From NCBI GenBank assembly GCA_963545485.1, contig CAUUJG010000004.1:23186-87185 (forward strand): 64,000 bases of DNA, in the 5' to 3' direction. The notes under the pieces were generated by a model. That model had not been told where the DNA came from. It worked only from the letters and a program-made list of their open reading frames with translations, and did no database searches. The translations under genes and the position numbers were made by a program. Source of the DNA: an uncultured Clostridia bacterium. Lineage in GTDB: Bacteria > Bacillota > Clostridia > Christensenellales > CAG-917. This document shows, piece after piece, positions 54,255 through 56,445 of this stretch. Position 1 is the first letter of the stretch. Every line of letters starts with the position of its first letter.

Positions 54255-55028
54255 ATGCAGTGGAAAATTTTTGAAGAAGAATGTCTAAAATATTTAAATG
54301 GTAAGTACGGTAATTATTTTAAATTGCAAGGGGAATCAAACTCTACAGTTAGTGATATTTATTTTAATGGTGAAGGGAATAGTTTTTATATTGAAGCTAA
54401 GATGCCAACGGCACAATGCGGACAATTTGTTTTGTTGCCAAGTGTTGAAAATAAAAAACTCACGTACTCAAATAAAAACAAAACACAGCAAAATGAATTT
54501 TTAGATGAAATAATAAAATTTATAAATTTAAATGTAGATAAGTTCCTGAATTGTGGAACAGCAGGTATAGAAATTTTATTAAATAAAGACATATTTTATA
54601 AGTGGATAGTAAATTATTATAAAAATAAAAATGTTAAATATATCATAACAAAACAAGAAAATTTTTTAATTTTTAGTATTGATAAAATTAATAAGTATTT
54701 TGATATTACAGCAAGATATAAACAAAAGAAAAGCGGATCTAGAGCTTTAAATTCAAGTAGAACAGATTTTGAATTTGCGATGAGGGCAGCAGGAATAGCC
54801 TTCACTTTTGTTGGACATAATATTGTTTCCAATGAGGACTTAGATAGTAAAAAGATTAAAGGTCTAAAATATGTATATTTGATAAAAAAGAGTAAAACAG
54901 GATATGTTGCAAGAATACTATCAAATACGAAAAATGCAAGTGTGATATTTTCAATTAAGCTCAAAAAATATAATGCTGAAGAACAGAAAAACGATATTTT
55001 GAATTTTGAAAAGGATATTAGCCGTTAG
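54255..55028 (+). CDS. Type II restriction endonuclease, R.HhaI-like
   Basis: 257 aa with a PD-(D/E)xK-like SDIYF...FYIEAK. The N-terminal region resembles my recollection of R.HhaI (258 aa). It is convergent with an M.HhaI-like gene. Confidence 0.65.
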   Translation: MQWKIFEEECLKYLNGKYGNYFKLQGESNSTVSDIYFNGEGNSFYIEAKMPTAQCGQFVLLPSVENKKLTYSNKNKTQQNEFLDEIIKFINLNVDKFLNCGTAGIEILLNKDIFYKWIVNYYKNKNVKYIITKQENFLIFSIDKINKYFDITARYKQKKSGSRALNSSRTDFEFAMRAAGIAFTFVGHNIVSNEDLDSKKIKGLKYVYLIKKSKTGYVARILSNTKNASVIFSIKLKKYNAEEQKNDILNFEKDISR

Positions 55029-55329
55029 GAAAAAAATTTTTAAAAAGCAAATATTTAGTTAAAGATAATTTATATGTATGAATTGTACCAAAACCAATGG
55101 GAAGCGAAGTTAGTTGATATTTTTTCATAATTTCGTTTTTACCGTTTTTTGAAAAAGCTTTTAGGAGCTGTTCGCAGCAATCATTATTAAACTCGAAATC
55201 AACAGAAGACTTTAGATGAGATGATATTAATGCAAAATCCAATCTTTTTAATCTAGACACAATGTCAGATGCAACTTTGGAAGAGGCACCATTTTTAATT
55301 AACCATATTTTAAATTGAGGAGTGTTCAT
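55018..55329 (-). CDS. Hypothetical 103-aa protein downstream of, and overlapping, the methyltransferase gene
   Basis: ATG at 55329 lies 20 nt inside the end of the methylase frame. The 3-prime end overlaps the endonuclease gene by 11 nt. I can name no recognisable motif. Confidence 0.4.
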   Translation of the reverse strand: MNTPQFKIWLIKNGASSKVASDIVSRLKRLDFALISSHLKSSVDFEFNNDCCEQLLKAFSKNGKNEIMKKYQLTSLPIGFGTIHTYKLSLTKYLLFKNFFPNG

Positions 55330-56294
55330 TCAGGGTTGTACCGATATTTATTGCGATGTATTGAAGAACATCAATTACAACAGAATTACCAAATTGTTTG
55401 TAAGCTTGGTTTGAAGAAGGATGAATTAAATATGAATCGGGGAATCCCATAAGCCTAGCACATTCTCTGGGATGTAGCCTCCTTGTTTTTCCATTAATAA
55501 GGTATCCTCCGGTTTTTGCAAATGCTCCGCCACCATTGGAAGAAAGAGTAATGGCAATACCCTTTGGACTATATATCCGCTCACCCTGTCTACCCTTTCC
55601 AACAGTTCCAATACGAATTGGTTTTGTTATGTCATCGTTAATGTGATTTTTTTTAAAATCAAATCAGAACGATTAATAACAAGGTTGGAAACTTCATCGT
55701 CAGATAACAGTAAATTTTCAAGACAAACAGAAAGTTTAAAAGCCTTGGGGAAGATAAATTTATTAATACCTAAATCCTTTCTAAAACAAACAATATAAAT
55801 TCGTTCTCTATTTTGTGGTATACCAAAATCTTGAGAATTAAGCACATCAGAAAAGAAATTGTAACCAATATCCGAGAGTGTTTCTTTTACAACTTTTAAA
55901 GTATTGCCGTTATCATGAGTGGCGAAGTTTTTAACATTTTCTAAAAAGAGTACTTTTGGTTTTTTTGCTTTAGCGATTCTTGCTACATCAAAAAAAGGGA
56001 TCCACGGCTATCTTTAAAGCCTTTTTGTTTTCCGCTTATAGAGAATGCTTGGCAAGGGAATCCTGCACATAAGATATCATGGTCTGGAATTGTGTTTTCA
56101 TTTACAAGTGTAATATCGTCATCAGGAATTTCTGCAAAGTTTATTTTATAAATTTCTTTTGCAGACTTATCGCACTCACTTGAATAGACACAGCTTGCAC
56201 CACAAGACTCTAAAGCAATGCGAAATCCACCAAGACCAGCAAATAAGTCTATAAATTTTAAACCAAATAAACTACTGTTTTTGTGTTTAAGCAC
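55310..56294 (-). pseudogene. C5-cytosine DNA methyltransferase, M.HhaI-like (predicted GCGC), interrupted by two 1-nt frameshifts
   Basis: All C5-MTase motifs are found across three frames: DLFAGLGG (I), GFPCQAFS (IV), LENVKN (VI), QNRERIY (VIII), [19 protein letters not shown] (IX) and QFGNSVVI (X). Frame switches occur at the A7 run 55990-55996 and the T8 run 55647-55654. The probable GTG start at 56294 is preceded by GAGG. Confidence 0.85.
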
Positions 56295-56445
56295 AAGAAC
56301 CTCAATAGCGCATTGCGCAAGTCCAGTGTAGCAATAATATGTCTCTATTTCAATAAATGATATAAGTAGCTGCAAAACAAGCACGACGCAGCTGGTTTTT
56401 CTTGACAACAAATAACAAAAAAAAGTAACATTAAGAAAGTCATTT

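What the first reader, a model, noticed from the sequence alone, without database searches (positions are those of the whole stretch)
54255..56319. HhaI-like R-M system with an intact endonuclease gene but a methylase gene broken twice, and two GCGC sites at the methylase start
The methylase reads through all ten C5-MTase motifs only if single nucleotides are added at the A7 run 55990-55996 and the T8 run 55647-55654. The repaired length is 328 aa. Long blocks match my memory of M.HhaI, for example [55 protein letters not shown].PDSY and QAYKQFGNSVVI. The convergent 257-aa ORF has a D...EAK nuclease motif and resembles R.HhaI. An active endonuclease with a truly dead methylase should be lethal. 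So one of three things holds: the frameshifts are artefacts, slippage restores enough methylase, or the endonuclease is inactive. Two GCGC sites (56308-56311 and 56316-56319, within TTGCGCAATGCGC) lie 14-25 nt upstream of the proposed GTG start. This suggests methylation-sensitive autoregulation.
Basis: partly seen in the sequence, partly recalled or inferred. Interest (0 to 1): 0.55.

Follow-up and report, generated by a model that had tools for sequence, protein, structure and literature searches.

The report
Decaying HhaI-type restriction-modification locus
This is a dying copy of the classic HhaI (GCGC) restriction-modification system: the methylase gene is truly broken, and the "intact" nuclease has lost an arginine that every relative keeps for reading GCGC, so the cell survives. 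The two GCGC sites in front of the methylase belong to a control element conserved across this enzyme family.

Summary
The 54255-55028 ORF is an R.HhaI homologue (47% identity). The minus-strand gene 55310-56294 is an M.HhaI homologue (69% identity after repair, 328 aa), broken by two 1-nt deletions, T8>T7 and A9>A8. An independent metagenome strain carries the same lesions. Related strains with the full runs have an intact 328-aa gene, so these are inherited mutations, not artefacts.

The window's R carries R156K. This residue matches R.HhaI Arg155, which reads a guanine of GCGC, and Arg is invariant in 116/116 homologues. The M gene also carries G236R in an invariant loop.

Across strains of this species, R was knocked out at least five separate times. 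M is broken only where R is damaged, and the break recurs at the A9 run.

GCGC is the most avoided tetramer in the window (3 observed, 46.7 expected). Two of the three sites form TGCGCAATGCGC at the predicted M transcription start. In 40 of 73 HhaI-like loci from other genomes, the same pair (TATAGCGCAnTGCGCTATA) lies in the M promoter. There it always co-occurs with a conserved 100-aa helical protein (55018-55329).

The locus itself is ordinary decay. The family-level operator and third gene are the novel part.

The parts
54255..55028 (+). R gene, an R.HhaI homologue of 257 aa. The reading frame is intact.
   Evidence: ORF. (PDB 6uke, E 1.1e-60). Catalytic E7, D34, E47, K49 and recognition residues Q54, Q57, K158, K159, S160, G161, S162 are conserved.
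54720..54722 (+). Codon AAA = Lys156. Relatives with an intact M gene have AGA = Arg. Equivalent to R.HhaI Arg155.
   Evidence: SNP at 54721. Arg is present in 116/116 family members and in all 14 other listed members of the 90% cluster. R155 makes bidentate H-bonds to G4 of GCGC (PMC7026639).
55018..55329 (-). orf103, a conserved about 100-aa all-helical protein. Its start overlaps the M stop by 20 nt and its end overlaps the R end by 11 nt.
   Evidence: Homologues lie between M and R in about 50 of 80 HhaI-like loci. 604 homologues found. AF2 mean pLDDT 90, all helices. No Pfam or PDB sequence match. Window versus relatives: 1 nonsynonymous and 6 synonymous differences.
55310..56294 (-). M pseudogene, an M.HhaI homologue. 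It has two frameshifts plus the G236R substitution, and starts at GTG 56294-56292.
   Evidence: The intact 328-aa allele is seen in L003-L012.
55990..55996 (.). Frameshift 1. The coding-strand run is T7 here and T8 in intact alleles (CTT TTT TTT GAT, encoding LFFD).
55647..55654 (.). Frameshift 2. The coding-strand run is A8 here and A9 in intact alleles (AAA AAA AAT, encoding KKN). This is a recurrent slippage hotspot.
   Evidence: The A8 allele sits on three different local haplotypes.
55589..55591 (-). Codon AGA = Arg, where relatives have GGA = Gly. Equivalent to M.HhaI G236, next to Q237 in the KGGQGE loop.
   Evidence: SNP at 55591. Gly is present in 77/77 M homologues.
56308..56319 (-). 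TGCGCAATGCGC, two GCGC sites 7 bp apart. It matches the family-wide operator TATAGCGCAnTGCGCTATA.
56325..56353 (-). Predicted M promoter: TTGAAA, 17-nt spacer, TG-extended TACACT. There are 6 nt between the -10 box and the first GCGC, the same geometry as in L024 and L027.
   Evidence: consensus match only. Geometry compared.
56300..56303 (-). GAGG ribosome-binding site, 5 nt before the GTG start.
   Evidence: Read directly from the sequence.
56446..56521 (+). tRNA-Asn flanking the locus. It holds the only other GCGC site in the window (56516).

Best explanation
This is a chromosomal HhaI-type (GCGC) Type II restriction-modification cassette in terminal decay, in an uncultured low-GC bacterium.

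The likely order of events is as follows.
1. The endonuclease was first disabled, or severely weakened, by a missense change, R156K. This residue corresponds to the arginine that in R.HhaI makes the bidentate contact to a guanine of GCGC.
2. With restriction gone, the methylase became dispensable.
3. The methylase was then lost by single-base slippage in two ordinary A/T runs (A9>A8, T8>T7), and it also picked up G236R in its recognition loop.

On this reading, GCGC sites in this strain are expected to be unmethylated and uncut.

Shown: the homologies, the reality and inheritance of the lesions, the intact ancestral alleles, the invariance of the two substituted residues, and the population pattern. 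Inferred: that R156K abolishes activity, and the order of events.

The two GCGC sites belong to a conserved palindromic operator at the start of the M-orf103 operon. In working relatives it most likely gives feedback control of methylase expression. It would do so through the small helical orf103 protein, or through methylation of the sites, or both. This would be analogous to AhdI and CfrBI. That part is inferred from comparative data only.
For: Homology. M versus M.HhaI, E 8.9e-156. R versus R.HhaI, E 1.1e-60.

The lesions are real.
- Locus L001 (ENA ERZ21659581) differs from the window by 7 SNPs and 2 indels in 12.7 kb. It has the same T7 and A8 runs, R156K and G236R.
- Relatives L003-L012 have T8 and A9 runs and a full-length M gene, called at 328-358 aa depending on the start chosen.

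Residue invariance.
- Arg at R position 156 in 116/116 homologues. Its structural role is described in PMC7026639.
- Gly at M.HhaI position 236 in 77/77 homologues.

Population pattern.
- Five independent R lesions: Q2*, Y18*, E47*, a 4-nt deletion, and R156K.
- M is broken in 7 sampled assemblies, all of them with an R lesion.
- All 10 loci with a full-length Arg156 R whose M gene is completely covered have an intact M, and an 11th (L013, cut by its contig end) still has the A9 run. Fisher P = 0.005 on the 11-locus count, though the loci are not phylogenetically independent.
- A8 occurs on three different haplotypes.

Long GCGC exposure. 3 sites observed versus 46.7 expected, the lowest of all 256 tetramers.

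Operator.
- The GCGCN3GCGC pair lies upstream of M in 40 of 73 loci, and is found nowhere else in any of the 80 loci.
- Co-occurrence with orf103 is 40/5/0/28 (both / orf103 only / pair only / neither), P = 2e-15.
- 22 loci match the 18 specified bases perfectly, whereas shuffled sequence gives a best match of 8-9 mismatches.
- Loci without orf103 keep relics in which GCGC has become GTGC, GCAC or GTAC.

No other C5-methylase is encoded in the window.
Against: - R156K is a conservative change, and its effect on cleavage was not measured. Lysine can still contact guanine O6 or N7.
- Only 64 kb of the genome was visible. A second GCGC-protecting methylase elsewhere cannot be excluded.
- The R gene shows no nonsense or frameshift mutation. 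Its dN/dS in this lineage (roughly 0.35, from 7 nonsynonymous and 6 synonymous private changes) is not clearly neutral.
- The correlation between R lesions and M loss rests on three independent lineages.
- Promoter positions are consensus matches only, and such matches are no more frequent here than in shuffled sequence.
Confidence: 0.7

Rival explanations
1. R is still active. The genome is protected by another methylase encoded outside the window that covers GCGC, so this M gene became redundant and decayed while R was kept.
For: The R reading frame, catalytic residues and all recognition residues but one are intact. CGCG, GGCC and ACGT are also strongly avoided, which suggests that several R-M systems are or were present in this species. 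Many related cassettes carry a second C5-methylase next to R.
Against: No second C5-methylase is in the 64-kb window or beside R in any strain of this species. This idea does not explain why the one strain type with a broken M also carries the only known substitution of a 116/116-invariant recognition Arg. In the other lineages, M loss is seen only after R was destroyed.
Confidence: 0.12
2. R is catalytically competent but not expressed. With M dead, the operator stays unmethylated, and the M-orf103 operon stays locked in its establishment state. Convergent transcription into the R gene, or action by orf103, then keeps R off.
For: The M-orf103 unit and R converge and overlap tail to tail by 11 nt. 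The consensus scan found no terminator-like site between them. The operator and orf103 are intact here, and orf103 looks to be under purifying selection. AhdI and CfrBI show that promoter methylation can set R-M timing.
Against: This is purely inferential. If loss of M silenced R automatically, strains with a broken M and an unharmed R should be common. Yet none was seen among the 11 sampled loci with a wild-type R. R156K would also remain unexplained.
Confidence: 0.08
3. Phase variation or slippage rescue. The homopolymers act as an ON/OFF switch, or transcriptional or ribosomal -1 slippage at U UUU UUG and A AAA AAA makes enough full-length methylase to protect the roughly 3 GCGC sites per 64 kb.
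For: Both lesions lie in runs that form classical -1 slippery heptamers, and the predicted slips would restore LFFD and KKN (sequence). The A9 run changed length repeatedly in the population. There are very few GCGC sites to protect.
Against: Two independent slips are needed in each molecule. G236R hits an invariant loop. OFF alleles are never seen together with a wild-type R. A/T runs of 8 or more are common in this genome, 30 in 64 kb, so the tracts are not special. Both T7 and A8 are fixed in two separately sampled strains.
Confidence: 0.04
4. The frameshifts are sequencing or assembly errors at homopolymers, and the system is intact.
For: The window comes from a metagenome-derived contig. 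Another gene in the window is also split at a T7 run.
Against: The same run lengths appear in a different sample, assembled by two different pipelines, with SNP differences from the window. A8 appears in six more assemblies, and only where R is damaged. Random errors would not correlate with R lesions.
Confidence: 0.02

Closest known systems
HhaI R-M system of Haemophilus (para)haemolyticus (R.HhaI PDB 6UKE-6UKI; M.HhaI PDB 1MHT and others)
   Same: - Both proteins are homologous end to end: M 69% and R 47% identity.
- R and M are convergent.
- R has a monomeric PD-(D/E)XK active site of the SD-Xn-EAK type and the KKSGS recognition loop.
- M has all the C5-methylase motifs and the KGGQGE loop.
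   Different: - Here M is a pseudogene with two frameshifts and G236R, and R carries R156K.
- The Haemophilus loci (L030, L031, L058) have no orf103 and no GCGC pair upstream of M.
- The catalytic spacer is X12 here rather than X11.
The four-gene HhaI-like locus described in Bulleidia extructa PP_925 (PMC12786226)
   Different: - That paper reads the small gene as a degraded integrase.
- Here it proves to be a conserved family of about 100 aa (604 homologues; 246 clusters at 50% identity). It is nearly always standalone, and it is tied to the GCGC-pair operator.
- The Bulleidia locus has a second methylase next to R. The window species does not.
Promoter-methylation autoregulation of methylase genes (AhdI, CfrBI, LlaDII)
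   Same: The system's own recognition site is embedded in the methylase promoter. AhdI is also a convergent system with its site at the -10 element. In about 30 HhaI-like loci the second GCGC directly abuts TATAAT.
   Different: - There are two sites in a 19-bp palindrome, rather than one.
- The element sits either in the promoter spacer or at +1 to +11, and it co-occurs strictly with an extra small protein. This points to a protein-bound operator rather than RNA polymerase sensing the methyl groups directly.
- No transcription experiment exists for this family.
R-M decay leaving orphan methylases or dead cassettes (restriction lost first, then modification)
   Same: In every lineage of this species where M is broken, R is also damaged. 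Several lineages have a dead R and a live M.
   Different: In the window lineage the R lesion is a single missense change at a recognition residue, so the gene looks intact to an ORF scan.

Membership tests
HhaI-type Type IIP R-M system | A C5-cytosine methylase homologous to M.HhaI over its full length, including the target-recognition domain | tested here: met
   The repaired protein matches at E 8.9e-156, 69% identity, residues 3-323 of M.HhaI. TIGR00675 dcm scores 305 bits.
HhaI-type Type IIP R-M system | An endonuclease homologous to R.HhaI with the SD-Xn-EAK catalytic motif | tested here: met
   E 1.1e-60 against PDB 6uke. E7, D34, E47 and K49 are present.
HhaI-type Type IIP R-M system | The complete set of GCGC-reading residues in R (R.HhaI Q53, Q56, R155, K157, K158, S159, G160, S161) | tested here: not met
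   All are present except R155, which is Lys here. Arg occurs in 116/116 homologues.
HhaI-type Type IIP R-M system | An uninterrupted, functional methylase gene | tested here: not met
   Two 1-nt deletions and G236R. Intact alleles exist in sister strains.
HhaI-type Type IIP R-M system | GCGC specificity of cleavage and methylation | not testable with these tools
   Indirect evidence only. GCGC is the most avoided tetramer (3 versus 46.7), and the operator is built from GCGC sites.
Phase-variable (contingency-locus) methylase | A hypermutable repeat inside the ORF that switches the gene reversibly ON and OFF in an otherwise functional system | tested here: not met
   - The A9 run changed repeatedly, but OFF alleles occur only where R is damaged.
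- The window has two frameshifts and a missense change.
- The runs are ordinary for this genome.
Promoter-methylation-regulated R-M (AhdI/CfrBI type) | The system's own recognition site(s) within the methylase promoter or initial transcribed region | tested here: met
   Two GCGC sites lie 6 nt downstream of the predicted -10 box. The same pair is found in 40 of 73 related loci.
Promoter-methylation-regulated R-M (AhdI/CfrBI type) | The methylation state of the site changes transcription | not testable with these tools
   Needs reporter assays or in-vitro transcription.
C-protein (controller) regulated R-M | A small helix-turn-helix C protein encoded upstream of R, with C-boxes in its own promoter | tested here: not met
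   - orf103 has no HTH or other Pfam match.
- It lies downstream of M, not upstream of R.
- No conserved element was seen upstream of R.

The most novel reading that the evidence does not exclude
HhaI-like cassettes outside Haemophilus may contain an unrecognised third component. This is a standalone helical DNA-binding protein of about 100 aa. The same domain occurs as the N-terminal module of GmrSD/NsnA-like and HNH defence nucleases.

The protein would bind a 19-bp palindrome made of two GCGC sites in the methylase promoter and read its methylation state. That would make it a controller of a different kind from C proteins or HTH-fused methylases.

The window keeps this protein intact, and apparently under purifying selection, even though both enzymes are dead. 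This hints that it may have a role of its own.
Probability: 0.35. Interest if true: 0.65.

Novelty: new variant of a known kind. Interest (0 to 1): 0.45.

Why it matters
For the window itself, the result shows that an endonuclease with an open reading frame and a dead methylase is not a paradox. One substitution at a structurally defined recognition residue is enough to explain it. ORF-level annotation would wrongly call this an active orphan restriction enzyme. The strain series (five independent R knock-outs, followed by repeated M loss at one A9 run) is a clean natural record of the order in which R-M systems die.

At the family level, most HhaI-type systems carry a strictly conserved double-GCGC palindrome in the methylase promoter, together with a small uncharacterised protein. 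Reviews describe promoter-methylation control as rarely used. A widespread, easily testable example in the best-studied C5-methylase family would therefore be useful for understanding how R-M systems time their expression. It might also uncover a new DNA-binding module, possibly one that senses methylation.

Tried and rejected
- Exact-peptide scan of one genome per species with the window R found no relative. The species representative lacks this R, or the species is absent from the collection.
- Organism identity could not be established. Ten window proteins are in the protein collection, but none carries an organism name. The sample context (a Haemophilus bin from a sister run; closest R homologues in Catonella, Parvimonas and Peptostreptococcus stomatis) only suggests a human oral bacterium.
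- Alternative genetic code: not formally tested. The rest of the window reads as long ORFs under table 11, and the M breaks are frame changes, not in-frame TGA codons.
- orf103 had no match in Pfam, NCBIfam or PDB by sequence. The only PDB sequence hits were weak, to proteasome Rpt3.
- Foldseek of the confident AF2 model against PDB gave no match at E below 2. The best TM-score, 0.52, was to an integrase. The integrase-like fold is therefore a weak lead, not a result.
- No conserved element or GCGC site was found upstream of R across the family.
- The promoter and terminator scan found no more sites than shuffled sequence gives. The promoter assignment rests on geometry shared with relatives.
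- Literature searches found no paper describing the GCGC-pair operator or regulation of HhaI-type systems.
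Full report
**Observation**

The region holds three ORF features.
- On the + strand, 54255-55028 encodes 257 aa.
- On the - strand, a C5-methylase reads through three frames from GTG 56294-56292 to the stop at 55310-55312.
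- Also on the - strand, a 103-aa ORF (55018-55329) overlaps the methylase stop.

Adding one base in the run 55990-55996 and one in 55647-55654 yields a 328-aa protein. That protein matches M.HhaI structures at E 8.9e-156, 69% identity over 321 residues. The 257-aa ORF matches R.HhaI (PDB 6uke) at E 1.1e-60, 47% identity.

**Are the frameshifts real?**

The exact R protein is encoded on a 152-kb metagenome contig (L001) and on an independently assembled contig from the same run (L002). L001 differs from the window by 7 SNPs and two indels in 12.7 kb, so it is a different strain. It has the same T7 and A8 runs.

Loci carrying a 97%-identical R (L003-L005), and the commonest R allele (L006-L013, found in dozens of samples), encode an uninterrupted methylase. 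Alignment shows that the window lacks one T of a coding-strand T8 (CTT TTT TTT GAT, LFFD). It also lacks one A of an A9 (AAA AAA AAT, KKN).

The lesions are therefore inherited 1-nt deletions, not artefacts.

**Why is the cell alive?**

Horton et al. (PMC7026639) define the R.HhaI catalytic residues as E7, D34, E46 and K48. The base-reading residues are S28, S30, Q53, Q56, R155, K157, K158, S159, G160 and S161. R155 gives bidentate H-bonds to guanine G4.

All of these are conserved in the window protein except one. Position 156 (equivalent to R155) is Lys, codon AAA at 54720-54722. Arg is present at this position in 116 of 116 homologues, and in all 14 other listed members of the same 90% cluster. 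The G>A change at 54721 is shared by the window and L001, the two strains with this broken M allele. It is absent from every strain with an intact M.

The methylase also carries G236R (M.HhaI numbering; codon 55589-55591) in the KGGQGE loop next to Q237. That position is Gly in 77 of 77 homologues. Three lesions in M argue for a pseudogene of some age, not for a switch.

**Population context**

Twenty-three loci of this species were recovered. R has been inactivated at least five separate times:

| R lesion | Loci | State of M |
|---|---|---|
| Q2* | L014 | intact |
| Y18* | L015-17 | A9>A8 |
| E47* (the catalytic Glu codon) | L018-21 | intact in L019 and L021; A9>A8 plus another 1-nt deletion in L018 and L020 |
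| 4-nt deletion | L022-23 | intact |
| R156K | window, L001/L002 | A9>A8, T8>T7, G236R |

Of the 11 loci with full-length Arg156 R (L003-L013), ten have a complete intact M. The eleventh (L013) is cut by its contig end but still has the A9 run.

The A8 allele lies on three different local haplotypes. The A9 run is therefore a recurrent slippage hotspot, whose OFF products survive only once restriction is gone. A/T runs of 8 or more are common here (30 in 64 kb), so nothing suggests a designed contingency locus.

By analogy with the four nonsense or frameshift lineages, R156K is the loss-of-function lesion of the window lineage. This is inference; the enzyme was not assayed.

**GCGC avoidance**

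GCGC is the most under-represented of all 256 tetramers: 3 observed versus 46.7 expected, observed/expected 0.06. CGCG, GGCC and ACGT are also strongly avoided.

**The two GCGC sites**

A profile of R homologues retrieved 80 loci from named genomes.
- Seventy-eight have a convergent M.HhaI homologue.
- About 50 have an orf103 homologue between M and R.
- Many have a second C5-methylase directly upstream of R.

In 40 of the 73 loci with enough upstream DNA, a GCGCN3GCGC pair lies just upstream of M. The pair occurs nowhere else in any of the 80 loci. Twenty-two loci match TATAGCGCAnTGCGCTATA perfectly, while shuffled controls give a best match of 8-9 mismatches.

The element appears in two positions.
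- In about 30 loci it fills the spacer of a TTGAAA-N16/17-TATAAT promoter, with the second GCGC abutting the -10 box.
- In 8 loci, including the window's nearest relatives (Catonella L024, Parvimonas L027), it starts 6 nt after the -10 box, at about +1 to +11 and just before the ribosome-binding site. The window has exactly this geometry.

The pair co-occurs with orf103: 40 loci have both, 28 have neither, 5 have orf103 with a degenerate pair, and 0 have the pair alone (P = 2e-15, not corrected for phylogeny). The Haemophilus prototype lacks both. Loci without orf103 retain relics in which GCGC has become GTGC, GCAC or GTAC, the products of 5mC deamination.

A two-position operator that is maintained only when a particular small protein is present points to protein binding, rather than to RNA polymerase sensing the methyl groups directly.

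**orf103**

- The family has 604 homologues and 246 clusters at 50% identity, almost all 95-105 aa.
- It has no Pfam or PDB sequence match.
- The AF2 model is confident (mean pLDDT 90) and all-helical.
- The domain also occurs at the N-terminus of an NsnA/GmrSD-like protein and of HNH nucleases. This fits a DNA-targeting module.
- In the window it differs from relatives by 1 nonsynonymous and 6 synonymous changes.

**Comparison with known systems**

The enzymes belong to the HhaI family, but the cassette fails two functional criteria: an intact M gene and a complete R recognition set.

The regulatory layout most resembles AhdI, a convergent system whose own site at the -10 box attenuates the M promoter when methylated, and also CfrBI. 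It differs from them in having a double-site palindrome and an associated protein. It is not a C-protein system.

**Verdict**

The locus is a real, ordinary, decaying R-M cassette. Its apparent paradox is explained by a missense change at a recognition residue (confidence about 0.7).

The main rival is protection by an unseen methylase elsewhere in the genome (0.12). The others are regulatory silencing of R (0.08), slippage rescue (0.04) and assembly artefact (0.02).

The part worth following up is the family-wide operator and the third gene.

Noticed in passing
window 7377-11484 (-), junction near the T7 run at 8929-8935: A protein that is 1368 aa in other strains (P0256, P0258) is split here into ORFs of 855 and 524 aa by a frame change at or near a T7 run. 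The 855-aa product is on record only for the window's own 96,490-bp contig. It may be a second homopolymer frameshift private to this genome, or an assembly error.
   Followed up: partly
window 51598-53161: An IS256/Mutator-family transposase (51598-52773, -) sits next to the R-M locus in the window and in L001. L003 has an IS4-type transposase at the same spot, and other strains have small HTH_11/HTH_24 ORFs there. 52883-53161(+) is a 92-aa remnant with a weak HATPase_c_4 match. The flank of the R-M cassette looks like an insertion hotspot.
   Followed up: partly
whole window: Besides GCGC, the tetramers CGCG (2 observed, 25 expected), GGCC (10, 49) and ACGT (21, 62) are strongly avoided. This suggests that other restriction systems act, or acted, on this species.
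   Followed up: no
L025, L027, L032-L035 and about 35 other related loci, immediately upstream of R: Many HhaI-like cassettes carry a second C5-methylase, about 32% identical to M, ending just before R on the same strand. R there appears to be co-transcribed with it. It is absent from all strains of the window species.
   Followed up: partly
proteins P0500, P0540, P0545 (from the representative search): The orf103 domain occurs as the N-terminal 100 aa of an NsnA/GmrSD_N-type protein (PADLOC NsnA, E 7e-102) and of HNH nucleases. Several proteins of 480-500 aa also have this N-terminus and no other recognisable domain.
   Followed up: partly
L008 (window equivalent about 55243-55250) and L017 (about 55238-55246): One strain with an intact R and an intact M has a 1-nt deletion in orf103 (L008). 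Another has a 9-nt in-frame deletion (L017). So orf103 is not strictly needed for viability of a working cassette.
   Followed up: no
window 56685-57284 (+) and 57316-60927 (-): Two genes lie beyond the tRNA: a 199-aa ORF with a sub-threshold RNA ligase 1 (RLIG1) match, and a 1203-aa protein with no family match. The first varies in length between strains (188-208 aa, and split in L003).
   Followed up: no
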